Positions 1,902 through 22,960 of a stretch of 43,501 bases of DNA are shown here, in pieces. The translations under genes were made by a program, and so were the position numbers. The notes beneath the pieces are model-generated. The model searched no databases, was not told the DNA's origin, and saw only the letters and a list, made by a program, of their open reading frames with translations. The stretch is from IMG/VR virus record IMGVR_UViG_2547132420_000011. One strand, 5' to 3'. Each line of letters opens with the position of its first letter. Position 1 is the stretch's first letter. This stretch comes from a virus. Lineage: Duplodnaviria > Heunggongvirae > Uroviricota > Caudoviricetes.

Positions 1902-1962
1902 GGCTATCACTCCGGAACGCGCCAGTTGCAGAATACCAACGACAACTGGCGACGGTTGAACA

Positions 1963-4718: not shown

Positions 4719-4903
4719 TGCCAGTATCCTTTTTGCATCGGGCGTAAACGTGCCAGCATTGAAAGAATGCATATTTTATTTAATAGCTCCCGTTCGTATT
4801 TTCTCTTATTAATGGCATCTTCAGTAAATACAGGGTTACTGATTCTGACACCAATTTCAAAACAACCTTCAGACGTATTGACGTTTGGTAATAACGTTTC
4901 CAT
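4715..4903 (-). CDS. Small prophage early protein, unknown function (kil-like position)
   Basis: ORF 4715..4999; ATG at 4903 (METLLPN...) preceded by GAGGA; first gene of the leftward operon; 62 aa. Confidence 0.4.
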   Translation of the reverse strand: METLLPNVNTSEGCFEIGVRISNPVFTEDAINKRKYERELLNKICILSMLARLRPMQKGYWQ

Positions 4904-4920
4904 TATCGCGTCCTCAACAA

Positions 4921-5082
4921 TGAATTTTGTGATGCGGTGCCTGGTGCCTCCAGGTGACGTTAACCAGTTAATAATTAACGCCGGATACAGAGAACCCACC
5001 CATAAGAACCAATACGGAAGTCAACTGGTCTTTTTAACTGTTCCGCGTGCGCTGAGCCGCATTCACCGCATCACAAAATTCA
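4921..5082. repeat. 19-bp perfect inverted repeat (TGAATTTTGTGATGCGGTG, 4921-4939 and 5064-5082) flanking a 124-bp spacer
   Basis: Read directly from the sequence; the arms are exact reverse complements; lies in the divergent intergenic region upstream of the leftward early operon. Confidence 0.7.
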
Positions 5083-7227: not shown

Positions 7228-7458
7228 ATGAAAAAATCAGAAGTATTAGGCTATTTTGGCGGAGTTGTTAAAACAGCCGCAGCTCTTGGAACGTCAAAAA
7301 CCACAGTCAGCATGTGGGGGGAAGAGGTTCCGTGGAAATGGGCGTTGCTAATTCAGGCAGTCACTGCCGGGGCGCTCAAATATGAGTTACACATACCGAC
7401 GGTTGTCATTCCCGGTTCTGATCATAATCCGCCTTCTAACCAAGGGGGGGATTCATGA
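7228..7458 (+). CDS. Cro-like HTH regulator
   Basis: ATG at 7228 preceded by GGAG; 76 aa; HTH-like segment VVKTAAALGTSKTTVSMW; stop overlaps the next gene start (ATGA). Confidence 0.7.
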   Translation: MKKSEVLGYFGGVVKTAAALGTSKTTVSMWGEEVPWKWALLIQAVTAGALKYELHIPTVVIPGSDHNPPSNQGGDS

Positions 7459-7880
7459 AAATCAAGCATGAACACATCCGCATGGCGATGAATGCCTGGG
7501 CGCATCCGGACGGCGAAAAAGTACCGGCTGCGAAAATTACCAAAGCGTATTTCGAGCTGGGAATGACGTTCCCGGAACTGTATGACGACAGCCATCCGGA
7601 AGCCCTGGCTCGCAATACCCAGAAAATTTTCCGCTGGGTAGAGAAAGACACCCCTGATGCAGTTGAAAAAATTCAGGCGTTGTTACCAGCGATCGAAAAG
7701 GCAATGCCACCTTTGCTGGTGGCCAGAATGCGCAGCCACAGTTCAGCTTATTTTCGGGAGCTGGTGGAGACGCGGGAGCGACTGGTGAGAGACGCTGATG
7801 ATTTTGTCGCAGTGGCAATCGCCGGTTTCAATCAGATGAACCGTGGTGGCCCGGCAGGAAATGCTGTGGCAGTACATTGA
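7455..7880 (+). CDS. YdaT-like protein (CII-like regulator position)
   Basis: 141 aa, translationally coupled to cro-like gene; size and position match YdaT of Rac-type prophages (from memory). Confidence 0.55.
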   Translation: MKIKHEHIRMAMNAWAHPDGEKVPAAKITKAYFELGMTFPELYDDSHPEALARNTQKIFRWVEKDTPDAVEKIQALLPAIEKAMPPLLVARMRSHSSAYFRELVETRERLVRDADDFVAVAIAGFNQMNRGGPAGNAVAVH

Positions 7881-7951
7881 CTGACAATAGCCATATCGAA
7901 TCGCTTCCGGCAACTCGTGAGTAAAAAGATTCGGTATCAGAAGAGGTGAGT

Positions 7952-9022
7952 ATGGCTAACGCCTGGCTCAGATTATGGCATGACATGCCAAATGACCCTA
8001 AGTGGCGAACAATTGCCAGGGTGTCAGGGCAGCCAATTGCAACAGTGATGGCAGTGTATATCCACCTCCTGGTGAGCGCGTCACGAAATGTCACGCGAGG
8101 TCACATTGATGTCACGACAGAAGATTTGGCAAGTGCGCTCGACGTGACAGAAGAGGTAATTGATTCAATTTTGCAGACGATGCAGGGGCGGGTACTTGAT
8201 GGTGATTTAATCACTGGATGGGAAAAACGCCAGGTGCTGAAAGAGGACAACGGCAATATTTCGCAAACCGCAAAATCTCCGGCAGAGCGCAAGAGGGCGC
8301 AGCGAGAGAGGGAAAGAAAGCGGGAACAAAATGGCGATTGTCACGGCGAGTCACGAAATGTCACGCACATGTCACGACGAGTCACGACAGATAAAGATAC
8401 AGATAAAGATACAGATCAAGAAGATCAAAACACTATGGTCCATGGCGTAAAAAACGCCACGAACCAGGCAGGGGATGTTCAGACCGTCAATCTTGGTCAG
8501 CCAGCAGGCACGACACCGGAAGCCGATTCAGCGTATGCGCTGAAAGCCGATTCGGGCGCTGTGCAGCAGGTGATGACCGCAAGGCCGGAGCAATCACACC
8601 AACTGCAGCAGCCCGAAGCCGATTCCGCCATTCAGCGGGAAGCCGATCGGGTAGTCCCGGAAAACACCGGGCAGTCTGTGGGACGAGTGGATTATCCGGA
8701 TGTGTTCGAACAGGTCTGGCGGGAGTACCCGTTGCGTGCTGGGGCAAACCCGAAGAAATCCGCTTTCAGTGCCTGGAAGGCCAGATTACGCGAGGGGGTG
8801 CCACCAGAGGCCATGCTGGATGGCGTGAGGCGTTACGCAAGATACTTGGCGGCTACCGGGAAAACGGGAACGGAATTTGTTCAGCGAGCGACGACGTTTT
8901 TTGGACCGGACCGGAATTTTGAGAACCCCTGGTTGCTCCCGGTAAGCGGCACGAACAACCAGCGTTGTGTGAATCATATTTCTGAACCGGATAACGAAAT
9001 TCCGCCGGGCTTCAGGGGGTAA
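7952..9022 (+). CDS. Replication initiator (O-like functional analogue) carrying iterons within its own gene
   Basis: ORF 7946..9022, ATG at 7952 preceded by GAGG; two in-gene clusters of GTCACG repeats at 10-11 bp spacing followed by an AT-rich segment, as for ori-lambda inside O. Confidence 0.65.
   Translation: MANAWLRLWHDMPNDPKWRTIARVSGQPIATVMAVYIHLLVSASRNVTRGHIDVTTEDLASALDVTEEVIDSILQTMQGRVLDGDLITGWEKRQVLKEDNGNISQTAKSPAERKRAQRERERKREQNGDCHGESRNVTHMSRRVTTDKDTDKDTDQEDQNTMVHGVKNATNQAGDVQTVNLGQPAGTTPEADSAYALKADSGAVQQVMTARPEQSHQLQQPEADSAIQREADRVVPENTGQSVGRVDYPDVFEQVWREYPLRAGANPKKSAFSAWKARLREGVPPEAMLDGVRRYARYLAATGKTGTEFVQRATTFFGPDRNFENPWLLPVSGTNNQRCVNHISEPDNEIPPGFRG
8080..8116. repeat. Iteron cluster 1: four GTCAC(G/A) repeats at 8080, 8090, 8100, 8111
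   Basis: Read directly; spacing 10, 10, 11 bp; encodes SRNVTRGHIDVTT. Confidence 0.6.
8340..8413. repeat. Iteron cluster 2 plus AT-rich direct repeats (putative replication origin)
   Basis: Five GTCACG repeats at 8340, 8350, 8360, 8371, 8381, then tandem GATAAAGATACA x2 (8390-8413). Confidence 0.6.
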
Positions 9023-9062
9023 GTGTTAATTTCTGGTCATGAGGTAATTTTCAGGAGGGCTT

Positions 9063-9485
9063 GTGGCAAAAGTTTTTACACAAGAAGAGCGGGAAAAAAT
9101 TAAAGGGCAGGTTCTTGAACTCGTACGCCAGAGTGGGCGCGAGACGTTACGACAACTGGAAGCTAAAACTGGGGCAACAAGATATCTGATGAGCGTTCTG
9201 GCCAGAGAGCTGGTTGCCAGTGGCGATGTATACAATTCTGGCTACGGGTTATTCCCGTCTGAACAGGCTCGTAAAGACTGGCAAAATGCCCGCAAAAAAT
9301 TATCGAGGGCAAAGCTGAAGAAACCGGTTGTGGTTGATCCGGACCTTATCTGGTCATTACCTGACGGAGAAATACGTCGCTACGACAGTCGCCTAAACAT
9401 AATCTGTCGCGAGTGCCGGAAGAGCGAAGTTATGCAGCGCATATTGTCGTTTTATCAGGGGGATGTTCGGTATTTATTGAAGTGA
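9063..9485 (+). CDS. Hypothetical protein, 140 aa (last gene of replication module before cargo)
   Basis: GTG start preceded by AGGAGG (9053-9058) at 4-nt spacing; basic C-terminal half; no recognisable helicase-loader motifs. Confidence 0.5.
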   Translation: MAKVFTQEEREKIKGQVLELVRQSGRETLRQLEAKTGATRYLMSVLARELVASGDVYNSGYGLFPSEQARKDWQNARKKLSRAKLKKPVVVDPDLIWSLPDGEIRRYDSRLNIICRECRKSEVMQRILSFYQGDVRYLLK

Positions 9486-9819
9486 CGAGATTAAAGTGCA
9501 TTAGTTCAGATGCAAATTGACATTTTGTGGCACAGGGTAGAGCTAGCGTGGTTGTCCGCTTTGTGCCAAGAGCAGACGCTGGTAATTCGTGCCTAATATA
9601 CTTCACTTAACTTATATCCCAGCTTTGATACAGATCATACAAATTAAATGCCCCAGTAATTGGCAGGCTGAGTAACTTAAAACTCCTTAGAATATAGGAT
9701 GATTTGTATCGGCACTCATTCCACCATGCATTCCGATTAACCCCGCATAGCCAGTTGAACTTTGCTACTCTGTGAGAGGTAGTACCTTCTATCCAGTGCG
9801 GATTTAATTAATGGAATAA

Positions 9820-11823
9820 ATGATTATGAGTGAAAATGATACAACCCCAAAGAAGTCTACAAGCCAGATTAACAAAGCGGTATTCTTTACATCTGCTTTG
9901 CTAATTTTCCTTCTTGTCGCCTTTGCCGCCGTATTCCCGGATGTCGCCGACAAAAATTTTAAACTACTTCAGCAACAAATCTTCACGAATGCCAGCTGGT
10001 TCTACATACTTGCTGTGGCCCTGATTTTACTGAGCGTCACGTTCCTTGGACTCTCACGTTACGGTGATATAAAGCTGGGCCCAGACCATGCGCAGCCTGA
10101 TTTCAGCTACCACTCCTGGTTCGCGATGCTTTTTTCGGCAGGGATGGGGATCGGCCTGATGTTCTTTGGCGTTGCCGAACCTGTGATGCATTATCTTTCG
10201 CCACCTGTCGGCACTCCAGAGACCGTTGCGGCAGCGAAGGAAGCCATGCGCCTGACGTTCTTCCACTGGGGTCTGCACGCATGGGCAATTTATGCCATCG
10301 TGGCGCTGATTCTGGCCTTTTTCAGTTACCGTCACGGTCTGCCTTTAACGCTGCGTTCTGCGCTCTATCCCATTATCGGCGATCGCATTTACGGGCCTAT
10401 AGGCCACGCGGTTGATATCTTCGCCGTGATAGGCACTGTCTTTGGCGTTGCAACATCGCTGGGTTACGGTGTATTGCAGGTGAATGCCGGTTTGAACCAT
10501 CTTTTCGGCGTGCCCATCAATGAAACGGTACAGGTCATTTTGATCGTGGTCATCACGGGGTTAGCGACGATTTCGGTGGTGTCCGGCCTGGACAAGGGAA
10601 TACGCATCCTGTCTGAGCTTAATCTGGGCCTGGCGGTGTTGCTCCTGGCGCTGGTCTTGTGCCTGGGTCCCACTGTGCTTCTGCTGAAGTCATTTGTGGA
10701 AAATACGGGTGGTTATCTGTCGGAACTGGTGAGTAAAACGTTCAACCTTTACGCGTATGAACCCAAGTCGAGCAACTGGCTGGGGGGCTGGACATTATTA
10801 TACTGGGGATGGTGGCTTTCATGGTCGCCGTTTGTAGGTATGTTCATTGCACGCGTTTCCCGCGGCAGGACAATTCGTGAGTTCGTGACTGGCGTGTTGT
10901 TTGTTCCCGCCGGCTTTACGCTCATGTGGATGACGGTGTTTGGAAACAGCGCCATCTATCTCATCATGAACCAGGGCGCCACTGACCTCGCCAATACCGT
11001 TCAGCAGGATGTTGCGCTTGCCCTGTTTAATTTCCTGGAGCATTTCCCGTTCTCTTCCGTGCTGTCATTCATTGCAATGGCGATGGTCATCGTCTTCTTT
11101 GTAACGTCTGCTGATTCGGGGGCAATGGTTGTGGATACTCTGGCATCAGGTGGGGTGGCAAACACGCCCGTCTGGCAGCGAATTTTCTGGGCATCGCTCA
11201 TGGGCGTTGTTGCTATTGCCCTGCTGATCGCAGGGGGGCTGAGTGCGTTGCAAACCGTAACGATAGCGAGTGCATTGCCCTTCTCAGTTATCTTATTAAT
11301 ATCCATATACGGACTGTTAAAAGCCCTGCGTCGGGATTTGACCAAGCGTGAAAGCCTTAGCATGGCGACTATTGCTCCTACGGCTGCACGTAACCCAATT
11401 CCCTGGCAGAGAAGGTTACGCAATATCGCGTATTTGCCGAAGCGCTCTCTTGTGAAACGTTTTATGGACGACATTATCCACCCCGCCATGACGCTGGTTC
11501 AGGAGGAACTTAACAAGCAGGGAACGATAAGCCACATCAGTGACGCCGCCGAGGATCGTATTCGCCTTGAAGTCGATTTGGGCAACGAGCTGAATTATAT
11601 ATATGAAGTGAGGCTTCGCGGGTATAACTCACCGACCTTCGCGCTCGCTGCGCTGGATAATGATGAGCAGCAGAGTGAACAACATCGATATTATCGCGCT
11701 GAAGTCTATCTCAAAGAGGGCGGCCAAAATTATGATGTAATGGGCTGGAATCAGGAACAGCTGATTAATGACATACTGGACCAGTACGAAAAACACCTGC
11801 ACTTCCTGCATCTGGTTCGTTAA
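9820..11823 (+). CDS. BCCT-family transporter, BetT-like (choline/betaine/carnitine)
   Basis: 667 aa, multiple TM helices; motifs GIGLMFFGVAEP and WTLLYWGWWLSWSPFVGMFIARVSRGRTIREF typical of BCCT transporters; hydrophilic C-terminal tail as in BetT; ATG at 9826 is an alternative start. Confidence 0.85.
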   Translation: MIMSENDTTPKKSTSQINKAVFFTSALLIFLLVAFAAVFPDVADKNFKLLQQQIFTNASWFYILAVALILLSVTFLGLSRYGDIKLGPDHAQPDFSYHSWFAMLFSAGMGIGLMFFGVAEPVMHYLSPPVGTPETVAAAKEAMRLTFFHWGLHAWAIYAIVALILAFFSYRHGLPLTLRSALYPIIGDRIYGPIGHAVDIFAVIGTVFGVATSLGYGVLQVNAGLNHLFGVPINETVQVILIVVITGLATISVVSGLDKGIRILSELNLGLAVLLLALVLCLGPTVLLLKSFVENTGGYLSELVSKTFNLYAYEPKSSNWLGGWTLLYWGWWLSWSPFVGMFIARVSRGRTIREFVTGVLFVPAGFTLMWMTVFGNSAIYLIMNQGATDLANTVQQDVALALFNFLEHFPFSSVLSFIAMAMVIVFFVTSADSGAMVVDTLASGGVANTPVWQRIFWASLMGVVAIALLIAGGLSALQTVTIASALPFSVILLISIYGLLKALRRDLTKRESLSMATIAPTAARNPIPWQRRLRNIAYLPKRSLVKRFMDDIIHPAMTLVQEELNKQGTISHISDAAEDRIRLEVDLGNELNYIYEVRLRGYNSPTFALAALDNDEQQSEQHRYYRAEVYLKEGGQNYDVMGWNQEQLINDILDQYEKHLHFLHLVR

Positions 11824-11886
11824 CAGCAACATGCCGCCACAGAGGCGGCATTTATTTATCCCGGCTGCAATATGAGGGAATGCAGA

Positions 11887-13164
11887 ATGATTTCACGCTG
11901 GAAATGGATGCTGAAGCAGACATTTAAAAAACTATGGTTCAGGGCAACGTTATTCGCAATTGTCGCAATAATAACGGCCCTTTTATCAATTCTTTTTAAA
12001 TCAATGATACCTGAGTCGGTTTCCGTGAAGGTTGGTGCGGAAGCAGTCGATAACATTCTGAACATACTGGCATCGAGTATGCTGGCAGTGACCACATTTT
12101 CGCTGAGCATCATGGTCACAGCCTACGGTTCAGCCACTACTAATGTGACTCCCAGAGCTACTCGTTTAGTTGTTGAAGACGTCACCACACAAAATGTACT
12201 GGCCACCTTCATCGGTTCTTTTCTCTTCAGTCTGGTAGGGATTATTGCCCTCAATATGGGAGCTTATGGAGAAAGGGGGAGAGTCATTTTATTCATTGTA
12301 ACACTGGTTGTCATTGCCTTAATCCTCATCACATTGCTTCGCTGGATACAGCATTTGACCTCTCTGGGGAGGGTTGGTGAGACAACGGCAAAAGTAGAAC
12401 AGGCGGCCATCGAAACATTTATTGCGAGAGCAAGAAATCCCTGTCTCGGCGGATATCCATGGCTTGAGAACAATGAACAGCCGAAAGGAACGGTTGCAGT
12501 TTATCCGAAAAAGATTGGCTATATTGAATATGTTGATATGGTGAAACTCAGCAAGCTGCTGACCAATGATCCCCGTCATGTATACCTCGTGGCGCAGCCG
12601 GGCAGTTTCATACATCCGTCCACGCCAGTTTTGTACCTGAGTCAGGGCCAGGAGTCATCAATCAGCACCGATTTACTTGAGACGATTATTGTCTCGGATG
12701 TACGTTCATTTGCTCAGGACCCCCGATTTTGTCTTAGCGTCATGGCCGAAATAGCCTGCCGAGCCCTTTCCCCCGCAGTGAACGATCCTGGAACCGCCAT
12801 TGATGTCATTGGCAGAGGTGTACGTATACTTTCCGCTTACGCGCAGAATAAATCTGATGAAATAGAAGTGAAATATCCTTCTGTACATGTTGCACCACTT
12901 CAGAATAACGATCTACTTGAAGACTTTTTCTCACCTGTTGCGCGCGATGGTGCCAGTATGAGGGAAATTCAGATAAGGGTACTTAAAGGACTGTCGATGC
13001 TGAGTAAGGGTTGGCCTGGAATTTTTGCTGAAGCCGCACAAACCCTAGCATTTGAAACATTAGAGCATGCTACTCGTGCTGACCATATAGATTCTGACAG
13101 ATATCTAATAAAATCAATTTATTATAATTTATTTAGTGGCGAAGATTCTAATAAAAAACCATAG
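11887..13164 (+). CDS. Membrane protein with N-terminal TM helices and soluble C-terminal domain (DUF2254-like, from memory)
   Basis: ORF 11872..13164; ATG at 11887 has a better GAGGGA spacing; four predicted TM segments in the first 170 aa. Confidence 0.65.
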   Translation: MISRWKWMLKQTFKKLWFRATLFAIVAIITALLSILFKSMIPESVSVKVGAEAVDNILNILASSMLAVTTFSLSIMVTAYGSATTNVTPRATRLVVEDVTTQNVLATFIGSFLFSLVGIIALNMGAYGERGRVILFIVTLVVIALILITLLRWIQHLTSLGRVGETTAKVEQAAIETFIARARNPCLGGYPWLENNEQPKGTVAVYPKKIGYIEYVDMVKLSKLLTNDPRHVYLVAQPGSFIHPSTPVLYLSQGQESSISTDLLETIIVSDVRSFAQDPRFCLSVMAEIACRALSPAVNDPGTAIDVIGRGVRILSAYAQNKSDEIEVKYPSVHVAPLQNNDLLEDFFSPVARDGASMREIQIRVLKGLSMLSKGWPGIFAEAAQTLAFETLEHATRADHIDSDRYLIKSIYYNLFSGEDSNKKP

Positions 13165-13294
13165 TTGCGGAGCAAGCGATACGGTTGTTGGCAAGTCAAG
13201 GGCAAAGCATTCGCGTGAGAGTGGGCGTCTGCTTTGTGCCAGAAGCGGACATACGTAACTTATGATACGCATCGCCAATCATCCGTTTCAAACA

Positions 13295-14176
13295 TCAACG
13301 CGGAAACGTTTTAAGAATGTAATCCCGAACATAGGCGGTTCGGCTGTTATTAGCCGTCCTTTTGTTCCAGACCAGATAAAGATGATTAGTCGGAGCGAGG
13401 TCTGCAGGTGTCACTGAAATCAGGCGACCACTTTTCAGGTCATTGTCACAGTGATAATCCGGCAGCACTGTCCACCCGTGGCCGTCACAGACCAAGTCGC
13501 GGATAATACGTAAATCCGGAATGGTGAATGTAGCCTGCATCTCAGGGGCTCTCTGAAACATGGAGGCCCAGAGCGCTCTAATCAGTGGCAACTCTTCGTC
13601 ATAAGCAATCAGCGGTAATGAGGCAAGCGTTTCAGCACCAGGTTCTGATCCGATGATCTCTGACATGGCGGGAGCATGAACAAGGAGCATGCGTTCAGTC
13701 AGTAGATGTGCATAGCCGTACAGACGGTCATCAGGCATAGATGCGGTAACAGCGAGATCGGCGCTCCCGTCATGCAAAAGGGAATAAATACGTTGCTTAT
13801 TGCCGGTATGAAAGCGTAGGCGATACCCCTCCTTCATTAGTGGAGCCATTACTGTCCCAAGCCGGGAATGAATAAAATCTGGCGGTCCTGCCAGATTAAT
13901 TGTTCCCCCACGTACAGAGCCTGACCGGAAAGAGGACAGCTTTTCTTCCAGACCATCAATGAAGGGTGAAACTGAGCGGGCAAGCTCATCCGCAGCTTCG
14001 GTTGCCGTCACGCCTCTGGCCTGCCTGATAAACAGACGCTTACCAACCAGAGTCTCAAGAGACTGGATATGCTGTGACGCCGCGGGCTGAGTGATGCCCA
14101 GTAGTTCTGCCGCCTTTGAAAAGGAGCCAGAGCGATAGGCCTCAAGAAACGTTCGCAGATGGCTCAGATGGCTCAT
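13295..14176 (-). CDS. LysR-family transcriptional regulator
   Basis: 293 aa; N-terminal HTH (SFSKAAELLGITQPAASQHIQSLE), LysR substrate-binding-like C-terminal domain; start overlaps the upstream ChaC-like gene stop. Confidence 0.85.
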   Translation of the reverse strand: MSHLSHLRTFLEAYRSGSFSKAAELLGITQPAASQHIQSLETLVGKRLFIRQARGVTATEAADELARSVSPFIDGLEEKLSSFRSGSVRGGTINLAGPPDFIHSRLGTVMAPLMKEGYRLRFHTGNKQRIYSLLHDGSADLAVTASMPDDRLYGYAHLLTERMLLVHAPAMSEIIGSEPGAETLASLPLIAYDEELPLIRALWASMFQRAPEMQATFTIPDLRIIRDLVCDGHGWTVLPDYHCDNDLKSGRLISVTPADLAPTNHLYLVWNKRTANNSRTAYVRDYILKTFPR

Positions 14177-14865
14177 AGTGAAGCGCCTCGCTGATGAAGT
14201 TTATCGTTACAGGGAGCCTCATGCAGAGCAAGGGCCAGTTCACTCACGTAATCATCCCGTATTCCCAACGCACCCAGAGTGGCCTGCAGTTTCCATACAT
14301 AATCTGCATTCGTGCCAATGTCTCCACGGGCAGATGCGATGCTCAACGCTACGGTCGCTGTAAGATTGTCCTGTTCATAATGCGGATGCAGTCTGTCTGA
14401 TACGAAAGCCAGCGCCTGAATTTCCTTACCGTTTCCTAGCGAAACGTCTGCCCAGACCGGACGGTAAAGACCGGTTATCATCTCGCGCGTCCAGACAATT
14501 TCCAGCTCATTAATAAGAGTCGATTCCGGCAGTCTGAACGCAATACCTTCGGTAATTCCACCTTCGTCGAGCGATAACATCCTGCCGGGGACATCAGGAG
14601 TCGCTCGTCCGGATATCAAACGAATGCAGAAACTGCGCTGCCATCCTTTCAGACGGGCCCGTTGCATTTCTTCAATCGCCAGCACGGGATTCCACATCAA
14701 TGACCCGTAGGCAAATATCCAGACAGGAGCACCCGTCGGGCGCTCCTCCAGAGTAGAGTTCATTGATGCGCGTATTTTTTCAGCGTCCCAGAGCATATTC
14801 GCCGGGAGCAGCGCTTCATGCACCCTGACAAATGTGCCATTAAGCATATTTTCACGGGTAAGCAT
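14173..14865 (-). CDS. ChaC-like gamma-glutamylcyclotransferase
   Basis: 230 aa; motif FAYGSLMWNP characteristic of the ChaC family. Confidence 0.8.
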   Translation of the reverse strand: MLTRENMLNGTFVRVHEALLPANMLWDAEKIRASMNSTLEERPTGAPVWIFAYGSLMWNPVLAIEEMQRARLKGWQRSFCIRLISGRATPDVPGRMLSLDEGGITEGIAFRLPESTLINELEIVWTREMITGLYRPVWADVSLGNGKEIQALAFVSDRLHPHYEQDNLTATVALSIASARGDIGTNADYVWKLQATLGALGIRDDYVSELALALHEAPCNDKLHQRGASL

Positions 14866-14876
14866 ATAACCTCCCT

Positions 14877-16076
14877 TTACTGGCCTACGATTTTAACCTG
14901 TTGAAATTTACGACTGTGGCTGCGACGGATTTGTGCAAGCAGCAACAGCAGGCCGAGCAGAGAAACAATCGCACCGCTGATACCGGTATACACGATACCG
15001 GCGTGGCTTATAGTAATGCTGCCCAGTACTGATCCCAGCGCTATACCTGAGTTGAAGCCCGCAATATTCAGGCCGGCAGCAACACCATGCGCATGAGGAG
15101 CATGTTGCTCAGCGACACCAATCAGACGGGCCTGCAGTGCCGGCACTGCGGCAAATGTCACCATACCCAGTAGCGCAACCAGAATGCCCATGCTCACCGG
15201 TGAGGATGACAGCAGCCACATACCAAGCACGACAACAACAATGCCGCTAATGATGAGTATATTGGCACGATTAACCCCCATGCTGTCGGTAAGTTTCCCA
15301 CCAAGAATATTACCTACCGCAGCTGTAATACCGTAAACCAGCATAAACAGACTCACCGTTGCTCCGGTAACCCCTGTCACCTGCGTCAGAATAGGTGCGA
15401 TAAAGGTGTAATCCGTAAACGAGCCTGCATACGCCAGCACCGTAACCAGCGCGCCGGCCAGCAACTTACGGTTAAACAGCATGCCGATATTCTGCATTGC
15501 TGAGTCACTATGTTCACCGGGCACGCTGCGTACGGGATCTTTCATACCGAACAACAGTCCAAGGAATCCGAACGCGCCAAAAGCGGCAATAGCGCCGAGA
15601 ACTGGACGCCATGAGACCACCCCCCCCAACCATGTACTCAGCGGTACGCCGATTGCCATCGCCAGAGTAAAGCCACCAAATACCACAGCCACCGCTCTGC
15701 CTGCTTTACCCGGTCCAGCAAGACGAGCTGCGGTACTGGATGCCGCAGCCAGAAACAGGCCGTGTCCCAGACCAGCAATGAACCGCGCTAACAGGAGCTG
15801 AGGTAATGTGGCTGCAAACGCGGCCGCCAGACTACCGGCAGTAAACACAACGGCAGTTGTAAGCATTACATTTTTCCGGCTCCAGCTTGCTGTCAGCGCA
15901 GACAGTACGGGTGCCGCGAACGTTGCCCCCAGTGCATAGGTTGTAACCGCTGCCCCGGTCTGCTCCACACCCACACACAACCCCTGAGCCATAACGTCTG
16001 TCAGCCCAATGGGGACAAATTCCGCGAGTCCGAGCGCAAAGGCACTGATAGTAAACACATAAATAACAAATGGCAT
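14877..16076 (-). CDS. MFS transporter
   Basis: 399 aa, about 12 TM helices, Gly/Ala-rich hydrophobic composition typical of the major facilitator superfamily. Confidence 0.85.
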   Translation of the reverse strand: MPFVIYVFTISAFALGLAEFVPIGLTDVMAQGLCVGVEQTGAAVTTYALGATFAAPVLSALTASWSRKNVMLTTAVVFTAGSLAAAFAATLPQLLLARFIAGLGHGLFLAAASSTAARLAGPGKAGRAVAVVFGGFTLAMAIGVPLSTWLGGVVSWRPVLGAIAAFGAFGFLGLLFGMKDPVRSVPGEHSDSAMQNIGMLFNRKLLAGALVTVLAYAGSFTDYTFIAPILTQVTGVTGATVSLFMLVYGITAAVGNILGGKLTDSMGVNRANILIISGIVVVVLGMWLLSSSPVSMGILVALLGMVTFAAVPALQARLIGVAEQHAPHAHGVAAGLNIAGFNSGIALGSVLGSITISHAGIVYTGISGAIVSLLGLLLLLAQIRRSHSRKFQQVKIVGQ

Positions 16077-16495
16077 GACTGGCTCCTGATTTAAGTAAGG
16101 AGTGCAGTCTGATTTAGAAAAACAGATAAATAAAATAATGTAAACTTCAGGCGGGATAAAATTATTTATATCTAAGGCAAAGATTCAATATTCCCACAGC
16201 ACACAGAAGTTTTCTGTCTTCAGGGAGAGGAGCTTCGAAAGTTCAGACGAAAAATTCCTGCGGCCCCTTTAAGAGTCAGTTGGCCGGGTTTGGTCCGCTC
16301 CTCGCTCAAAGCGGACTAGAAGGTTAGCTTGCGTCGGACTTGGCGTATTTAAAGAAGTGCTGGTGGTGACTGGTTGTTGTGTTCCATTTCTACAGAACAA
16401 AATCACAGAAACTATACCCAATAGTTATATTGAATCAATGATGAGACAGCCTCATATTTATCAGAACTGGTGTACGTCCAATACAGGAGGTTGTC

Positions 16496-16585
16496 GTGCT
16501 GGTTCTCAAATGTGCGCTAGCTATTGCGGCTGTAATGGCAATTTATTGTCTTGCTGTTGTTCTTATGGAGCGGCTTTCTGATTGA
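16496..16585 (+). CDS. Candidate small hydrophobic membrane peptide (29 aa)
   Basis: GTG at 16496 preceded by AGGAGG (16485-16490) at 5-nt spacing; translation MLVLKCALAIAAVMAIYCLAVVLMERLSD is a single TM helix with charged C-terminus; stop TGA 16583-16585. Confidence 0.3.
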   Translation: MLVLKCALAIAAVMAIYCLAVVLMERLSD

Positions 16586-16799
16586 TTACATACTGGCTAG
16601 AAAAAAGGTGTTACCTTGGTTTATCTTTGTCCGGCAAGGTGCGCTCATTAATCTTAAGTAAATTTATTGCTCAAGTATTCAGATTACTTCTTATGGTTGA
16701 AGTCTCCTGTCAATGTAGAACCAATATATTTACAAAAATGAGACCCGTCGGGGATAGCCCTGCCGGGTCTGACTGTTAAAGCATTTTTAATATGATCAT

Positions 16800-17162
16800 C
16801 TATTTTTTGGTGCTATAGACTTTTTCGCCCGAGAAGTCTGGAGCGACCCAAAAGTTAATATTAAACTGAGCATCATCGCTTAGTTCAACACGGTGCCAGT
16901 ATTGTGGTGGGCTTGTTGCAAAAGCGCCAGCATTAATGACTACTTTTATCTCCGGTTCAGTAGCATTCTCATCAGTAAAACCATAATATGTTACAGTGCC
17001 TTCCATTACGCACAACTGCCCAAAAACACCTGCTGCTGTATTATGATGTGTTAATAACGCTGAAGGTACGTTCTCTTTTGTGAAGAACGGAGTTGAGCGT
17101 TTGATTACCCAATCTTTAGGAATTCTCTTGTGTGTCATAACCACCTCATCAAAAACATGCAT
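16800..17162 (-). CDS. yeaR: YeaR-like protein (DUF1971 family)
   Basis: 120 aa; resembles E. coli YeaR by size and motifs (KRSTPFF, FW/FNINFWVAP) from memory; hairpin plus T-run downstream on the minus strand. Confidence 0.7.
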   Translation of the reverse strand: MHVFDEVVMTHKRIPKDWVIKRSTPFFTKENVPSALLTHHNTAAGVFGQLCVMEGTVTYYGFTDENATEPEIKVVINAGAFATSPPQYWHRVELSDDAQFNINFWVAPDFSGEKVYSTKK

Positions 17163-17951
17163 TATAAATGCGTGTTTTTGATGGTTATGTCAAGCTGTTA
17201 TGAAACACATAATTGATATGTTGATTAGAGGAGAAGATATAATAAATATGGTTGTTTTTCGTATAACTATTTGTTTTACTTTTAGTTTATGCATTCTGTG
17301 TGTTAGGAATAAGTTATTAAAGTTTAATCAAAAAATCTCGATGTAGTCCACATAGATTATTGTTACTGAACCTTATTGTGTGTATTAGTTGTGTTCTGAA
17401 ATTTCAGCTTAATTATTTATGATGTATTTTTTAACGATAAATATTTTCCCAGGATACCTTTACTGTGTATATAAATAAATTATATACACATAAATAATGT
17501 AAAGGCGTCCTTTTAGATATATCTTATCAAATGTTAATGACTTGAGTGGGAAATATGATTCCAGCAACTTATCATGTGGCTACTTTATAAAAATAATGCC
17601 CATATAAAACAACAAGCGAAAAGGATTACGGATAAAAAAGGAGCGAGATGTGCGAACTTGTTATTTTCCATGTTTAACCACCTTAAATAATTGATGATGA
17701 CGGGATGATTGCATCTGTAATGCTTTTATTGAAATGTTATGATAAAAAAGAACTTTTGCATAACATTAAAATGTAATTTATCTAATCGTTTTTAATAATA
17801 AATGTCGTATTTCTATCCTTGTACCAGCTATTTGATATGTAGTGTTTGTTCATGCTATGTGGGGCTTTACACCATAGCCAGTTTATTTATACTTTATTCG
17901 TCAGCCTGAACAACTGGCATCTGCTGCGCTGCGCCATCGAGAGATTGAGAA

Positions 17952-18551
17952 ATGGCGCATATACAACTGGTCAAACAAACTTCTTCTGGTTTACTTCTCC
18001 CGGCGACGCCGGAGAGTTGCGATTTTCTGCATCAAATCAAAATAGGTGAGTGGATACACGCAGACTTTAAGCGTGTGCGTAACTACGCATTCCACAAGCG
18101 TTTTTTCAAACTCCTGCAACTGGGATTCGATTACTGGACTCCGGTCGGTGGGGCGATCACGCCTCGCGAACGAGAACTGCTGTCTGGTTTCGTTGATTAC
18201 CTGTGCGAATCAGTTGGTCGGGAACACACGCCAGCCCTGAGTGATGCCGCAGAGCAATACCTTAACACCGTTGCGACTCGTAGAACCCGGGATACGGCGT
18301 TGCTAAAGTCGTTTGAGGCTTTCCGCGAGTGGGTAACCATTCAGGCCGGATTTTACACCGAGCATATTTATCCGGACGGTAGCCGTGGGCGTCGGGCAAA
18401 ATCCATCGCTTTTGCGAATATGGACGAAGTCGAGTTTCAGCAGGTTTATAAATCTGTACTGAATGTGCTGTGGAACTGGATTCTGTTTCGTAAATTCTCC
18501 TCTCAGGAGGAAGTTGAAAATGTGGCCGCACAACTACTGGAGTTTGCGTAA
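17952..18551 (+). CDS. Phage nin-region protein, DUF1367-like
   Basis: 199 aa; first phage-like gene after the AT-rich gap; stop overlaps the next gene start (TAATG). Confidence 0.7.
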   Translation: MAHIQLVKQTSSGLLLPATPESCDFLHQIKIGEWIHADFKRVRNYAFHKRFFKLLQLGFDYWTPVGGAITPRERELLSGFVDYLCESVGREHTPALSDAAEQYLNTVATRRTRDTALLKSFEAFREWVTIQAGFYTEHIYPDGSRGRRAKSIAFANMDEVEFQQVYKSVLNVLWNWILFRKFSSQEEVENVAAQLLEFA

Positions 18552-18841
18552 TGGTGAATTTACGTAAAGCGGCTAAAGGCCAGATGTGCCAGATCAGAAT
18601 CCCTGGCTACTGCAATCACAATCCCGAAACCTCTGTGCTGGCGCATTACAGGCTGGCGGGGACGTGCGGAACAGCGACAAAACCACACGATATGCAGGCG
18701 GCGATAGCCTGTAGCTCATGCCACGATCTAATCGACGGGCGGGTAAAAACCAGCGATTACACCAAAGAAGAATTGCGCCTGATGCATGCTGAAGGGGTTT
18801 TTCGCACACAAGAAATCTGGAGAAAGAAAGGTCATTTATGA
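18551..18841 (+). CDS. ybcO: YbcO-like protein (DUF1364, putative nuclease with Cys/His metal site)
   Basis: 96 aa; motifs CQIRIPGYCNHNPETSVLAH and ACSSCHD resemble DLP12 YbcO (from memory); translationally coupled to flanking genes. Confidence 0.7.
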   Translation: MVNLRKAAKGQMCQIRIPGYCNHNPETSVLAHYRLAGTCGTATKPHDMQAAIACSSCHDLIDGRVKTSDYTKEELRLMHAEGVFRTQEIWRKKGHL

Positions 18842-19380
18842 TTTACCCAACGAATACAGGAAAAAGCGGAGAACACCTTCGCCTCACCACGCTGGAAAGT
18901 GTCTGGATTCAGGGAAAACTACGTATGTGGGGGCGCTGGTCGTATATTGGCGGTGGCAGGTCAGGGAATATGTTCAATCAGTTGTTGGCATCCAAAAAAC
19001 TGACGAAAACAGCCATTAATGAAGCCCTGCGTAGAATGAAAAAAGCGGGAATAGAGAAAGCTGAGCTGGAAGCGTTTTTGCGAGAGATGATCAACGGCAA
19101 GCAAAAGAGCTGGCTGGCGCATTGTACTGATGCAGAGGCGTTATGTATTGATCGAGTCATAAGTGAGGTGCTGGCAGAGCATCCAGGATTGATTTGCATT
19201 CTCCGGCAACGCTATGAAGGGCGGGGGATGACTAAGCGCAAAATGGCTGAATTGCTAAATGATGGACACCCAGAGTGGTGTTTTAGCACATGCGAAAAAC
19301 GGATTGCTAATTGGTTAGCTGTTGCTGAGTATGCCCTATATATTCCCATGCGTGAATCATTTGCTGAGAAAATGGCTTGA
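18838..19380 (+). CDS. Putative late-gene antiterminator (Q-like), called by position
   Basis: 180 aa; last nin-region gene, followed 80 nt downstream by a strong intrinsic terminator and then the late/lysis genes. Confidence 0.55.
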   Translation: MIYPTNTGKSGEHLRLTTLESVWIQGKLRMWGRWSYIGGGRSGNMFNQLLASKKLTKTAINEALRRMKKAGIEKAELEAFLREMINGKQKSWLAHCTDAEALCIDRVISEVLAEHPGLICILRQRYEGRGMTKRKMAELLNDGHPEWCFSTCEKRIANWLAVAEYALYIPMRESFAEKMA

Positions 19381-19460
19381 TTTCTTACGTATAAACTGCT
19401 TCAATTTTGCTATGCTTCGCACAGCTGTATCGCGAGGCGGATTGCAGACATGGACATCGT

Positions 19461-19487
19461 AAAAAAACCGCTTAATGCGGTTTTTTT
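19461..19487 (+). terminator. tR'-like intrinsic terminator downstream of Q-like gene
   Basis: A7 (19461-19467), short GC stem CCGC/GCGG around loop, then T7 (19481-19487); symmetric A-run/T-run suggests bidirectional function. Confidence 0.55.
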
Positions 19488-19807
19488 ACGTCAGGAAAGC
19501 AGGGGAGAATGCTGCTAGTTGGGCAACTGGTCTTTCTGCTCCAAATTATAACAGAGACCAGTTATAGTTTCGGTGCTGTGTTTTTTTTACAATATTGTGA
19601 TAACACATTGCTGGCGGGAGTTTTGATATTTCTTGGCAGGGGCTGATGATGCGTTATCCTGATGTCGTCAACTCATATAAAATGAGATGAGAGATCATTG
19701 CAGGGTGGTTTGTAATTCGCTGTTTAGCGGGACAATATGTTGTCTGATACAAGACACCCGACGCCTCAGATTACTATAATAAAGACGAAGCATCCTTTGT
19801 ATTGACC

Positions 19808-19833
19808 AACCGCCTGTTTAGGCGGTTCTTTTT
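19808..19833 (+). terminator. Rho-independent terminator
   Basis: Stem AACCGCC (19808-19814), loop TGTTTA, stem GGCGGTT (19821-19827), then CTTTTT. Confidence 0.5.
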
Positions 19834-20423
19834 GGACTGGTTTATTGTATGCCAAATGATTATTAAAAAGGTTGTGTTAATAACAAAATCCGAAATAATA
19901 TGCCTGCATATTTTTATCTTGCTTATATTCTGCATATTGTGCATAGCAGGCTCATCCCTGCAATCAAAACTGTATGATGAGTATTTTTTTTTTCCTTTTT
20001 TCCAGTCATCTGATGATGACCTGCTTCTTTTTAATCCGGATCGACATCAGTTTTTTAAGATAATTCCTGCGAGTTATATGCATAAATACCACAAACTCCG
20101 CATTTTATGTGGTTGGGAGTTGCCGGGCGCGCAGTGAGTTTGCTAAGAAAACTCCTGCATGGTGAATCCCCCTGTGCGGTGGGGTGATACCATTAACCTT
20201 TTCTGTCGCCGACAGGTATCACGAACATTTTGTTCACCGGGAGGCACCCGGCACCATGCACTTCAATAGATTCTCTCCACATTATGGATATTCTTTCAGA
20301 ATATCCCACGCAGACTTTGTGTAAATGTTAACAAATGTGCGTTTTATTTGATCTGATTCGCTGTTTGAGCGTCCAAAACAACGGTATATATAATCCTTTA
20401 CTATATGACATATGTGAGGAAAA

Positions 20424-20852
20424 ATGGGTTTTCGTAGCGCATCAATTCTTACGTTGATTATTAGTGGGATTATTATCGGGTGCACTGATGCTGTATCGAC
20501 AAATTATCATGACCGTACATCATATTACTCCGATAAAGCAATAGAGACACAGTATGTGAGTTCATCTGAACGTACTTCTGATGTTAGTGAGGATATCCGT
20601 CTGTATGCCCATCAAATCAAGAGCGCCATCGAAAAACAGTTCGGGGATGCGAGTAAGTATTCAGGAAAAGAGTGTACACTGAGAATGCATATGGCCCCGA
20701 ATGGCCTTCTACTGGAGGTTAAAAGAGAAAGTGGAGACCTCGATTTATGTCGTGAAGCGATGAATGCGATAAAGAATGCTGATATACCTGCCCCCCCTTC
20801 GCCGGAAGTATATAAAGTATTTCAAAATGGGGTGCTGGATTTTAAACCCTGA
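20424..20852 (+). CDS. Lipoprotein with TolA C-terminal (domain III)-like domain, moron
   Basis: 142 aa; signal peptide and lipobox IIGC; C-terminal segment IRLYAHQIKSAIEKQFGDASKYSGKECTLRMHMAPNGLLLEVKRESGDLDLCREAMNAIKNADIPAPPSPEVYKVFQNGVLDFKP resembles E. coli TolA C-terminus from memory; GAGG upstream. Confidence 0.7.
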   Translation: MGFRSASILTLIISGIIIGCTDAVSTNYHDRTSYYSDKAIETQYVSSSERTSDVSEDIRLYAHQIKSAIEKQFGDASKYSGKECTLRMHMAPNGLLLEVKRESGDLDLCREAMNAIKNADIPAPPSPEVYKVFQNGVLDFKP

Positions 20853-21002
20853 TATTTATTGTTTTGTAATAAACGGTTTCGGCTTAGGTTTGTTCTGACA
20901 CAGCTACGGCACTGAGCTAAATTTAGCGGATAGTCAGCTCTGAGCCAGTGGCGGACGTAACAACTACTATTGCTGAGATTTTAATGGATTGAGGAGCAAG
21001 AA

Positions 21003-21398
21003 GTGGGATTAAAGAAAATCGTTATGTTGACTTTTTGGGTCGGTTTTGTTGCGGGATGCACACCTTTACACCCTTCAGATTGCCACAAAACTACTGCTAC
21101 AGGTAGTTGCAGTTCAGGACGCTGGGATGATCAGGATGAATGGGGGGCGCAAGCGCGGGGAATCAGAGCTGCAATTAATGCCAAACTTGATGAGCCGCAT
21201 AACTGGAAAGGGAAAAAATGCAGGTTGCATATGGAATTCTCTCAGGATGGCACGGCGTTAAAAATATCTACCAGTAACGGTGATAAAGCCTATTGCGAAG
21301 CGATAAAGTCCGCAGCTCATAAAGCCAAATTTCCGGCCTTCAACAATCCGGAAGTCTACAGAGATTTTCAGAAATCTGGCTTTGACATGCGAGGTTAG
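21003..21398 (+). CDS. Lipoprotein paralog with divergent TolA-III-like C-terminal domain
   Basis: 131 aa; GTG start preceded by GAGGAG; lipobox VAGC; shares motifs with the neighbouring lipoprotein (GKKCRLHMEF..DGTALKI, two Cys, PEVYRDFQ). Confidence 0.65.
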   Translation: MGLKKIVMLTFWVGFVAGCTPLHPSDCHKTTATGSCSSGRWDDQDEWGAQARGIRAAINAKLDEPHNWKGKKCRLHMEFSQDGTALKISTSNGDKAYCEAIKSAAHKAKFPAFNNPEVYRDFQKSGFDMRG

Positions 21399-21523
21399 CT
21401 CTTCAATTACTATATCTCATTCATAGCAAACTGACAGATTTGATGATGTTCTATATACGAAACCTGTGATGTCAAGTCTGAGCTAATACAAATAAACATA
21501 ATATCAGAGAAATACATTTTATT

Positions 21524-22823: not shown

Positions 22824-22960
22824 AATCTTAACTACAATATGATTCATTTTGATGATTGTTTCATAAGAAACAGTGAAGTAAGATCTAAGAGGAGTTAAAT
22901 TTTATACAGTATAATCATAATATTGCAGCAAGGTGGTTATAATTGAAAGAATATTTAGAT

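What the first reader, a model, noticed from the sequence alone, without database searches (positions are those of the whole stretch)
9486..17951. 8.4-kb block of non-phage transport and metabolic genes embedded between the replication and nin/Q modules
Seen: between the last replication-module gene (ends 9485) and the first nin-like gene (17952) lie a BetT-like BCCT transporter, a DUF2254-like membrane protein, a LysR regulator, a ChaC-like cyclotransferase, an MFS transporter and a YeaR-like gene, then 790 bp of very AT-rich DNA; no transposase or integrase is visible. No helicase-loader (P or DnaC-like) gene follows the initiator, suggesting the block replaced part of the replication/nin region. 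Inference: either a large moron or recombination scar that makes the prophage defective while adding osmolyte/transport functions, or a chromosomal segment captured between two prophage arms.
Basis: partly seen in the sequence, partly recalled or inferred. Interest (0 to 1): 0.5.

Follow-up and report, generated by a model that had tools for sequence, protein, structure and literature searches.

The report
Site-bounded cargo cassettes in a prophage
The "foreign" transport and metabolism genes are two swappable gene cassettes sitting in a cargo hotspot of a lambda-like E. coli prophage, bounded by a conserved 24-base site that may define an undescribed recombinase-driven cassette system shared by phages, plasmids and genomic islands.

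Summary
The block, however, is not one 8.4-kb unit and not a scar.

- **Backbone.** Window 16317-17951, holding the DUF1971 gene and the AT-rich spacer, is phage-type backbone.
- **Insert.** The real insert is 9554-16316. It holds two cassettes: BetT+DUF2254 and LysR-ChaC-MFS.
- **Sites.** The cassettes are bounded by three copies of a 24-bp imperfect palindrome, GTCYGCT-N10-AGCRGAC. Shuffles of the window give none.
- **Breakpoints.** Homology with phages (Tritos, mEp460_ev081), qnrS1 plasmids and a Klebsiella IncF plasmid ends exactly at these sites.
- **Hotspot.** In a capped sample of 119 viral contigs, the same position downstream of the DUF977 gene holds at least 32 unrelated cargo classes. 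Many are anti-phage defence genes.
- **Two site types.** Cargo is bracketed by an "F" site (spacer GTGCCA) and an inverted "R" site (spacer GAGCGA).
- **Exchange point.** The left arm follows the upstream DNA in 100% of cases. The last two loop bases and the right arm follow the downstream cassette in 100% of cases.
- **Candidate enzyme.** A 202-aa tyrosine recombinase, absent from this window, sits exactly between an R and an F site in phages, plasmids and islands.

Recombinase-mediated cassette exchange is inferred, not shown. The missing helicase loader is not evidence of damage, because the same replication module occurs in deposited phage genomes.

The parts
7946..9022 (+). Replication initiator/organiser (358 aa). 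The backbone has no separate DnaC-like loader.
   Evidence: phrog_3729 at E = 1e-257. Residues 130-358 also match phrog_1701, a DnaD-like helicase loader family. The same gene is found in phage Tritos.
9063..9485 (+). DUF977/LygF (Ren-like) gene, the last backbone gene before the cargo hotspot.
   Evidence: Pfam DUF977 and phrog_142. A homologue lies about 280 bp left of the F site in 77 of 123 loci.
9554..9577 (+). F-type site a: GTCCGCT TTGTGCCAAG AGCAGAC. It is a hybrid of a backbone left arm and the BetT-cassette right arm.
   Evidence: Tritos homology ends at its right edge, and plasmid homology starts at its left edge.
9578..13226 (+). Cassette 1: BetT-type BCCT transporter (9820-11823) plus a DUF2254 membrane protein (11872-13164).
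   Evidence: Pfam and NCBIfam. It is 99.8% identical, over 9553-13252, to a segment of qnrS1 plasmids. The module occurs in 1533 plasmids.
13227..13250 (+). F-type site b: GTCTGCT TTGTGCCAGA AGCGGAC. It is the junction between the two cassettes.
   Evidence: The plasmid pPO125 match ends here and the Klebsiella plasmid match starts at 13253.
13251..16292 (-). Cassette 2: MFS transporter (14877-16076), ChaC-like gamma-glutamylcyclotransferase (14173-14865) and LysR regulator (13295-14176), arranged like an operon on the minus strand.
   Evidence: Pfam. It is 92.3% identical to a segment of K. pneumoniae IncF plasmid pINF231_2, where it is bracketed by an F and an R site.
16293..16316 (-). R-type site: GTCCGCT CCTCGCTCAA AGCGGAC. 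Its reverse complement matches the R consensus with no mismatch.
   Evidence: Tritos backbone homology resumes here.
16317..16600 (+). Phage backbone to the right of the hotspot, including a 29-codon hydrophobic ORF at 16496-16585.
   Evidence: 94.5% identical to Tritos upstream of hokD. This right flank follows an R site in 63 of 123 loci.
16800..17162 (-). DUF1971 (YeaR/TehB-N-like) gene. It is part of the phage-type backbone, not of the insert.
   Evidence: Pfam DUF1971 and phrog_34268. It lies inside the 92%-identical stretch 16803-19439 shared with vB_EcoS-666R9.
17163..17951 (.). AT-rich spacer (GC about 0.32) upstream of the nin-like genes. It is conserved together with DUF1971 in related lambdoid records.
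   Evidence: No Rfam family was found there.
17952..19380 (+). nin/Q module: DUF1367 (NinB-like), DUF1364 (YbcO) and a Q-like antiterminator.

Best explanation
Window 9554-16316 is a two-cassette cargo array in the accessory-gene hotspot that lies just downstream of the DUF977/LygF gene in Rac-type lambdoid phages.

**Site layout**
- Cargo in this hotspot is bracketed by two classes of a 24-bp site with a 9-6-9 layout.
- F is GTCCGCTTT-GTGCCA-nnAGCGGAC.
- R is its inverted counterpart, GTCCGCTTT-GAGCGA-nnAGCGGAC.
- The well-conserved arm faces the backbone. The variable nn plus AGCGGAC arm faces the cargo.

**How cassettes move**
- Cassettes move between phages, plasmids and genomic islands by conservative exchange inside the central region of these sites.
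- The two fixed spacer differences would keep F from recombining with R. Pairs F x F and R x R would then swap a cassette, and two direct F sites would let a cassette leave or enter as a circle.
- The BetT+DUF2254 cassette looks like such an integrated circle. It carries variant arms (AGCAGAC on its left, GTCTGCT on its right) that would form one perfect site if rejoined.

**Candidate enzyme**
- The most likely catalyst is a 202-aa, catalytic-domain-only tyrosine recombinase acting in trans.
- It is not encoded in this window.

**Function of the cargo**
- Inferred from family membership only: uptake of choline or a related quaternary amine, and an MFS/ChaC-type module under a LysR regulator. 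Both are probably expressed from the lysogen.

**Shown versus inferred**
- Shown: gene identities, the sites, the breakpoints, the cargo diversity, the exchange point, and the position of the recombinase gene.
- Inferred: that the recombinase acts on these sites, the role of the spacers, and the physiological function.
For: 1. **The sites are non-random.** There are three exact matches in the window and none in 100 shuffles. They were also the top direct and inverted repeats in an unbiased repeat search (D1, I1, I2).
2. **Independent comparisons all break at the sites.** This holds for Tritos, for qnrS1 plasmids pPO125 and FDAARGOS_439, and for Klebsiella pINF231_2.
3. **The R class was not in the search pattern.** A viral scan specified only the F pattern. 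It still returned R sites in inverted orientation, with two fixed spacer differences (T to A in 90%/97% of copies, C to G in 96%/94%). The conserved right flank starts immediately after them.
4. **Cargo is very diverse.** There are at least 32 unrelated cargo classes (541-5779 bp) between sites.
   - Defence or candidate-defence genes: PD-T7-1, DarT, RelA/SpoT (PDC-S33), AAA_13 (PDC-S06), a CAP12/Pycsar-type TIR-domain protein (PDC-S35), FRG (PDC-S15).
   - Metabolic genes: NUDIX+HAD.
5. **The exchange point is mapped.**
   - The left arm is 100% determined by the upstream flank (103 sites).
   - The nn bases and right arm are 100% determined by the downstream flank (94 sites).
   - The right end of the BetT cassette is joined to 8 different downstream classes.
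6. **The same cassette occurs in several contexts with the same boundary.** Examples are c2, the BetT cassette and the LysR-ChaC-MFS cassette.
7. **The recombinase sits between two sites.**
   - An R-type site lies about 57 bp upstream of the gene and an F-type site about 19 bp downstream. It takes the place of the 18-bp R-F spacer.
   - This holds in all 5 viral or plasmid loci that have the gene.
   - It also holds in Enterobacterales loci picked by protein only and in E. coli prophage and island loci.
8. **Relatives in Pseudomonas-type genomes are flanked by inverted GTCGCTAACCGGCCA**.
9. **The recombinase gene is common in E. coli**, occurring in 903 of 5426 complete genomes.
Against: - No recombinase of this kind is in the window, and its activity has never been tested here.
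- No empty site and no free circle was observed. Among 5426 genomes, only one had both flanks within 700 bp, and that was an internally deleted cassette.
- Exchange inside a 24-bp conserved sequence could also come from short-homology recombination. This prophage has a RecE-type exonuclease gene.
- Outside Enterobacterales and Pseudomonas, I could not show sites next to the recombinase gene.
- Absence from the literature rests on a few full-text searches of an incomplete library.
Confidence: 0.6

Rival explanations
1. The 24-bp sequences are conserved module-boundary sequences with some other primary role, such as protein binding or insulation. Cassettes are swapped by general or phage-encoded short-homology recombination (RecET/Red-type, relaxed fidelity), not by a dedicated site-specific recombinase.
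For: - The prophage encodes a RecE-type exonuclease, and related Rac prophages encode RecE and RecT.
- 24 bp plus conserved flanks is near the lower limit for such recombination (established knowledge of Red/RecET).
- The hotspot is never empty, and most carriers lack the small recombinase nearby.
Against: - It does not explain why unrelated cargo from plasmids, islands and at least 10 phage backbones all carry both site classes with the same polarity.
- It does not explain why two spacer positions differ consistently between F and R.
- It does not explain why a tyrosine recombinase gene sits exactly between an R and an F site in every locus examined.
Confidence: 0.25
2. The cassettes are non-autonomous transposons whose about 27-bp terminal inverted repeats (the F and R sites) are moved by a transposase encoded elsewhere.
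For: F and R are inverted relative to each other, with the same polarity toward the cargo. The conserved motif extends 3 bp into the cargo (aTt).
Against: - There are no target-site duplications in any of 23 distinct F...R pairs.
- No transposase is associated with them.
- About two thirds of copies sit at the identical backbone position.
- The internal junction in this window is a direct F repeat, not an inverted end.
Confidence: 0.05
3. One reading: the block is a recombination scar, or captured chromosome, that deleted part of the replication/nin region and left a defective prophage.
For: - No DnaC/P-type gene follows the initiator.
- No deposited phage genome carries these two cassettes.
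- The insert is about 4.9 kb larger than the Tritos cargo.
Against: - The same initiator+DUF977 arrangement without DnaC is found in phage Tritos, and the initiator lies at the same offset from the site in 32 sampled loci.
- Both flanks are contiguous backbone in phages.
- Junctions are precise, at conserved sites.
- All phage modules in the window have open reading frames.
- The same array is present in 252 complete E. coli genomes.
Confidence: 0.07

Closest known systems
Integron gene cassettes (IntI, attI, attC)
   Same: - Unrelated genes are stored as discrete units separated by short imperfectly palindromic sites.
- A tyrosine recombinase gene sits next to the array.
- The R-18bp-F junction has two inverted simple sites, like the two halves of an attC.
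- Defence genes are frequent cargo.
   Different: - The recombinase has only a catalytic domain (202 aa). It scores 17 bits on the integron-integrase models, whose cut-offs are 265-435.
- The sites lack the RYYYAAC/GTTRRRY cores and are sequence-conserved.
- Cassettes lie in both orientations and can carry their own regulators.
- Predicted single-strand folding is weak and does not pair R with F, so a double-stranded site is more likely.
pdif (XerC/XerD-site) modules of Acinetobacter plasmids
   Same: Discrete cargo modules bracketed by inverted short recombinase-type sites with a 6-bp central region. The same module is found in different replicons with identical boundaries.
   Different: - There is no sequence resemblance to dif or pdif (11-6-11, from my own knowledge).
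- A dedicated small recombinase gene is associated here, rather than host Xer.
- The main habitat here is a phage hotspot.
R64 shufflon (Rci recombinase, sfx sites)
   Same: - The sfx core is GTGCCAA, and only the core and one arm are conserved (PMC4176322, PMC11852207).
- The F spacer is GTGCCA(A/G).
- At recombinase-proximal F sites, only the spacer and the cargo-side arm are canonical.
   Different: [quoted passage not shown]
- sfx sites are 12-7-12 and their conserved arm has a different sequence (my own knowledge).
- Shufflons invert pilV segments rather than carry exchangeable cargo.
- Homology between the two recombinases was not tested.
Cargo hotspots and morons of temperate phages (P2/P4 hotspots; lambdoid morons such as trkG in Rac)
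   Same: A fixed position between conserved phage genes holds highly variable accessory and defence genes (PMC9122126 for P2/P4).
   Different: In the papers I read for P2/P4 (PMC13586616), no conserved recombination site or dedicated recombinase is mentioned for those hotspots. Here the boundaries are a defined 24-bp site pair.
Laboratory recombinase-mediated cassette exchange with heterospecific lox/FRT sites
   Same: Two inverted sites share the same arms but differ in spacer, so each recombines only with its own kind and a cassette is replaced without leaving an empty site.
   Different: That is an engineered arrangement. Here it is only inferred from natural sequence patterns.

Membership tests
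Lambdoid (Rac-type) prophage moron / cargo hotspot | Genes absent from related phages at the same backbone position, with backbone contiguous on both sides | tested here: met
   Tritos and mEp460_ev081 carry other cargo between the same flanks. About 60-80 viral contigs do the same.
Lambdoid (Rac-type) prophage moron / cargo hotspot | Own promoter and terminator allowing expression from the prophage | tested here: inconclusive
   The consensus scan found no more promoter-like sites than shuffles (14 against 13.8). A terminator-like hairpin follows betT at 11831-11851.
Integron cassette array | IntI-type integrase | tested here: not met
   The associated recombinase scores 17 bits on the integron-integrase models, whose cut-offs are 265 and 435. 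None is encoded in the window.
Integron cassette array | attC sites with RYYYAAC ... GTTRRRY cores that fold as single strands | tested here: not met
   The site consensus lacks these cores. Single-strand folding gives -1.9 to -6.3 kcal/mol, and the R-18-F composite does not fold R onto F.
pdif / Xer modules | 28-bp dif-like XerC and XerD binding arms | not tested
   Judged only by eye against the dif consensus recalled from memory, with no resemblance seen. No formal comparison was run.
Transposon / insertion sequence | Transposase gene and target-site duplication | tested here: not met
   There is no transposase in 9486-17951 and no duplication flanking 23 distinct F...R pairs.
Shufflon (Rci/sfx) | Rci-type recombinase with C-terminal domain; 12-7-12 sfx sites; inversion only | tested here: inconclusive
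   Only the spacer GTGCCA(A) and the one-arm asymmetry are shared (PMC4176322, PMC11852207). Recombinase relatedness to Rci was not tested, and no inversions were looked for.
BetT choline transporter (NCBIfam NF007399) | Score above the curated subfamily cut-off | tested here: met
   751.7 bits against a cut-off of 695. Substrate was not tested.

The most novel reading that the evidence does not exclude
F and R sites, together with the about 200-aa catalytic-domain-only tyrosine recombinase, form a previously undescribed cassette-exchange system. It would be integron-like in function but use conserved double-stranded heterospecific sites. It would stock a defined hotspot of lambdoid phages, as well as plasmids and genomic islands, with anti-phage defence and metabolic genes across Enterobacterales, with relatives in Pseudomonas and other Proteobacteria.
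Probability: 0.4. Interest if true: 0.85.

Novelty: new variant of a known kind. Interest (0 to 1): 0.62.

Why it matters
- **A mechanism for cargo turnover.** If the sites are true recombination sites, this gives a concrete way that lambdoid prophages exchange defence and metabolic cargo with plasmids and islands.
- **A link between phage and plasmid cargo.** The very same BetT+DUF2254 unit sits next to qnrS1 on resistance plasmids.
- **A discovery handle.** A sequence rule (F...R) could be used to mine new defence genes.
- **A possible tool.** The system offers a compact recombinase with a natural heterospecific site pair.
- **For this window.** The block should be annotated as two cassettes in an apparently intact prophage, not as damage.

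Tried and rejected
- **RNA element.** An Rfam scan of 9000-21500 at E <= 0.1 found nothing in the block, only STnc100 at 20127-20313.
- **Terminator or hairpin role for the sites.** There is no T-run after them and the terminator scan did not pick them up. Folding is weak, and the hybrid site a is no better than shuffles.
- **attC-like single-strand folding of the R-18-F junction.** The minimum-energy fold does not pair R with F.
- **Transposon model.** No target duplications were found.
- **Search for an empty hotspot.** Only an internally deleted cassette turned up, in strain A20.
- **Generic inverted-repeat test around the recombinase gene in all 79 loci.** It was uninformative, because exact-match length was no better than shuffles outside the Pseudomonas group.
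- **Perfect 7-10-7 palindrome count in non-enteric loci.** No shared motif emerged.
- **Compositional foreignness.** Cassette GC (0.48 and 0.52) is not distinct from the phage. Only the backbone spacer is AT-rich.
- **Literature.** Six searches and two paper look-ups found no description of these sites or this recombinase. The sequence-word search returned only chance hits.
- **The "vB_EcoS-...R" records.** At least one of these records, vB_EcoS-640R1, includes host potC/potD genes and is labelled a partial genome, so I do not count this series as proof of virions.
Full report
**1. Observation**

| Gene | Coordinates | Evidence |
|---|---|---|
| BCCT/BetT | 9820-11823 (+) | 751.7 bits against the BetT subfamily cut-off of 695 |
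| DUF2254 | 11872-13164 (+) | Pfam |
| LysR | 13295-14176 (-) | Pfam |
| ChaC-like | 14173-14865 (-) | Pfam |
| MFS | 14877-16076 (-) | Pfam |
| DUF1971 | 16800-17162 (-) | Pfam |

- The stretch 17163-17951 is AT-rich, with GC 0.32 over 17001-18000.
- The block lies between a DUF977/LygF gene (9063-9485) and a DUF1367/NinB-like gene (17952-18551), followed by YbcO and a Q-like antiterminator.
- The block holds no transposase or integrase.

**2. Context**

- The window is a lambdoid prophage of E. coli.
- Its centre and right part (7450-19500) are 99.7% identical to a Rac prophage at ttcA in strain NCTC11129.
- Its left arm (1-5000) is identical to a prophage next to potC in strain NCCP 13717.
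- No complete E. coli genome holds the whole combination.
- The 9.5 kb around the block occurs in 252 of 5426 complete E. coli genomes.
- All phage modules in the window have open reading frames. In NCTC11129 several are frameshifted or interrupted by an insertion sequence.

**3. The block is a mosaic with exact joints**

Local alignments gave the following matches.

| Comparison | Window stretch matched | Identity |
|---|---|---|
| Phage Tritos | 7450-9585 and 16293-16600 | 94-97% |
| qnrS1 plasmids | 9553-13252 | 99.8% |
| K. pneumoniae IncF plasmid | 13253-16317 | 92.3% |
| vB_EcoS-666R9 | 16803-19439 | 92% |

- Tritos carries a different 1.8-kb cargo, an FRG-domain gene, between its two matching stretches.
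- DUF1971 and the AT-rich spacer therefore travel with lambdoid backbone. DUF1971 also matches phrog_34268.
- The true insert is 9554-16316, made of two modules.

**4. The sites**

- Every one of these joints coincides with a copy of a 24-bp imperfect palindrome, at 9554-9577, 13227-13250 and 16293-16316.
- The pattern GTCYGCT-N10-AGCRGAC has 3 matches in the window and 0 in 100 shuffles.
- An unguided repeat search ranked these copies first.
- Tritos, the plasmids and the Klebsiella plasmid carry the same sites at their own joints.

**5. A general hotspot**

- In about 80 of these loci, the window's left flank (the 3' end of DUF977) abuts the site. In 63, the window's right flank starts directly after a second site of a different class.
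- The DUF977 gene lies about 280 bp to the left in 77 loci, downstream of at least three different replication modules.
- Between the sites lie at least 32 unrelated cargo classes, 541-5779 bp long, with GC from 0.30 to 0.60.
- Cargo includes PD-T7-1, DarT with a macro-domain partner, a RelA/SpoT-type protein (PDC-S33), an AAA_13 ATPase (PDC-S06), a CAP12/Pycsar-type TIR-domain protein (PDC-S35), FRG (PDC-S15) and a NUDIX+HAD pair.
- The evolved lambdoid phage mEp460_ev081 has F-[PD-T7-1-like gene]-R at this place.
- The sites also occur in at least 10 other backbones.

**6. Anatomy of the sites**

These consensus sequences come from 81 distinct F copies and 39 distinct R copies.
- F is GTCCGCTTT-GTGCCA-rrAGCGGAC-aTt.
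- The reverse complement of R is GTCCGCTTT-GAGCGA-nnAGCGGAC-nTt.
- The arms are the same. The central six bases differ at two fixed positions.
- F and R are inverted, so the conserved arm faces the backbone and the variable arm faces the cargo.
- Adjacent cassettes are separated by R, then 15-18 bp (consensus cttyagctcagttacctc), then F.
- There are no target-site duplications.
- As single strands the sites fold weakly. The hybrid site at 9554 folds no better than shuffles, which argues against a hairpin or terminator role.

**7. Where exchange happens**

- Across 137 F sites, the 7-nt left arm is fully predicted by the upstream flank (103 sites in 8 classes).
- The last two loop bases and the right arm are fully predicted by the downstream flank (94 sites in 16 classes). 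They are only 48% and 77% predicted by the upstream flank.
- The joint therefore lies within TTGTGCCA.
- The right end of the BetT cassette (left arm GTCTGCT in all 15 copies) is joined to 8 different downstream cassettes.
- The BetT cassette's own arms, AGCAGAC on the left and GTCTGCT on the right, are complementary variants. This is the pattern expected if a circle carrying one site GTCTGCT...AGCAGAC had crossed over with a resident GTCCGCT...AGCGGAC site. This is an inference.

**8. A candidate recombinase**

- A 202-aa protein with only a Phage_integrase catalytic domain falls below the cut-off of every NCBIfam model.
- It is found in five of the sampled loci. In each, an R-type site lies about 57 bp upstream and an F-type site about 19 bp downstream. 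The gene occupies the R-F spacer.
- Loci chosen by this protein alone came from more than 547 species, at 58-98% identity.
- Those from Buttiauxella, Pectobacterium, Pantoea, Phytobacter, Klebsiella, Erwinia, Leclercia, Providencia and Rahnella show the same flanking sites and arrays of F...R-18-F...R cassettes.
- Pseudomonas-type loci have inverted GTCGCTAACCGGCCA on both sides of the gene.
- The gene is in 903 of 5426 E. coli genomes. Two examples:
  - a Qin-type prophage with the order DUF977-F-cargo-R-18-F-PD-T7-1-R'-int-F'-cargo-R-hokD;
  - a UPEC island holding a 5.7-kb TonB-receptor/ABC-transporter cassette.
- The window has no such gene.

**9. Mechanism and rivals**

- The best reading is conservative exchange within these sites, most likely catalysed in trans by this recombinase. 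The F and R spacers would keep the two ends of a cassette distinct.
- The main rival is short-homology recombination (RecET/Red-type) at conserved boundary sequences. That rival fits the never-empty hotspot: only one genome of 5426 has both flanks within 700 bp, and it holds an internally deleted cassette. It does not explain the fixed spacer differences, the presence of the sites on unrelated replicons, or the position of the recombinase gene.
- A transposon model fails for lack of duplications and of a transposase.
  - The 358-aa initiator, whose C-terminal half matches a DnaD-like loader family, plus DUF977 and no DnaC-like gene is the full arrangement in Tritos, and the initiator lies just upstream of the site in 32 sampled loci.
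  - Homology runs unbroken up to the first site.

**10. Comparison with known systems**

- The system resembles integrons, Acinetobacter pdif modules, the R64 shufflon and engineered cassette exchange.
- The shufflon's sfx core is GTGCCAA, with only the core and one arm conserved (PMC4176322, PMC11852207).
- It fails the defining features of integrons that I tested and of transposons.
- I found no description of it in six literature searches and two paper look-ups. The library is incomplete, so this is weak evidence of novelty.

**11. What the cargo does here (inferred from family membership only)**

- Cassette 1 probably provides uptake of choline or a related osmoprotectant, plus a membrane protein of unknown role.
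  - The same unit occurs in 1533 plasmids, 68 of them at 99% identity or more and next to qnrS1 in the two examined.
  - A 93% version sits in Klebsiella IncF plasmids with a decayed F site at its right end.
- Cassette 2 is an MFS-ChaC-LysR operon-like unit on the opposite strand.

**12. Limits**

- No experiment was possible.
- The viral sample is capped and pattern-selected.
- At least one of the "vB_EcoS" records includes host genes, so I do not treat that series as virion evidence.
- No deposited phage genome carries these two cassettes, so whether a phage with them is viable remains open.

Noticed in passing
window 20127-20313 (+): Rfam STnc100 sRNA match (86.6 bits, gathering score 47), between the Q-like gene and a TolA-like ORF.
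   Followed up: no
window 16496-16585 (+): A 29-codon, very hydrophobic ORF (VLVLKCALAIAAVMAIYCLAVVLMERLSD) a few bases downstream of an AGGAGG. It lies in the backbone right of the R site and is conserved in phage Tritos upstream of hokD. It may be a small membrane toxin.
   Followed up: partly
window 20933-20956: A degenerate F/R-like site, GTCAGCTCTGAGCCAGTGGCGGAC, with 4 mismatches to either consensus and a hybrid spacer GAGCCA. It lies between a TolA-like gene (20424-20852) and the holin, and is conserved at the same place in related loci. It might mark a second, decayed cargo position.
   Followed up: partly
window 22943-24418 (+): A TrkG/TrkH-type potassium transporter gene of low GC (0.38-0.40), between the Rz gene and the packaging genes. 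This is the classic Rac moron. It is intact here but frameshifted in NCTC11129, and has no F/R sites next to it.
   Followed up: partly
L128-L135 and L163-L183, just upstream of the small recombinase gene (for example L128 7960-8000): A hairpin that would sequester the ribosome-binding site is kept, with different sequences, in Enterobacterales (CTCAAATCTCC/GGAGATTTGAG) and in Pseudomonas-type loci (GTCCTCC/GGAGGAC). This suggests translational control of the recombinase.
   Followed up: no
L002 (pPO125) 8002-15452; L003: On qnrS1 resistance plasmids of E. coli and Klebsiella, the BetT+DUF2254 cassette is followed by a 476-aa gene, the small recombinase and cassette c2, all bounded by F/R sites. 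A whole phage-type array sits on resistance plasmids next to ISKpn19 and IS26.
   Followed up: partly
window 1-5000 against L210 and L001: The prophage is a mosaic. Its integrase/left arm matches a potC-adjacent prophage (NCCP 13717), while its centre and right part match a ttcA-integrated Rac prophage (NCTC11129). No complete E. coli genome has the full combination.
   Followed up: partly
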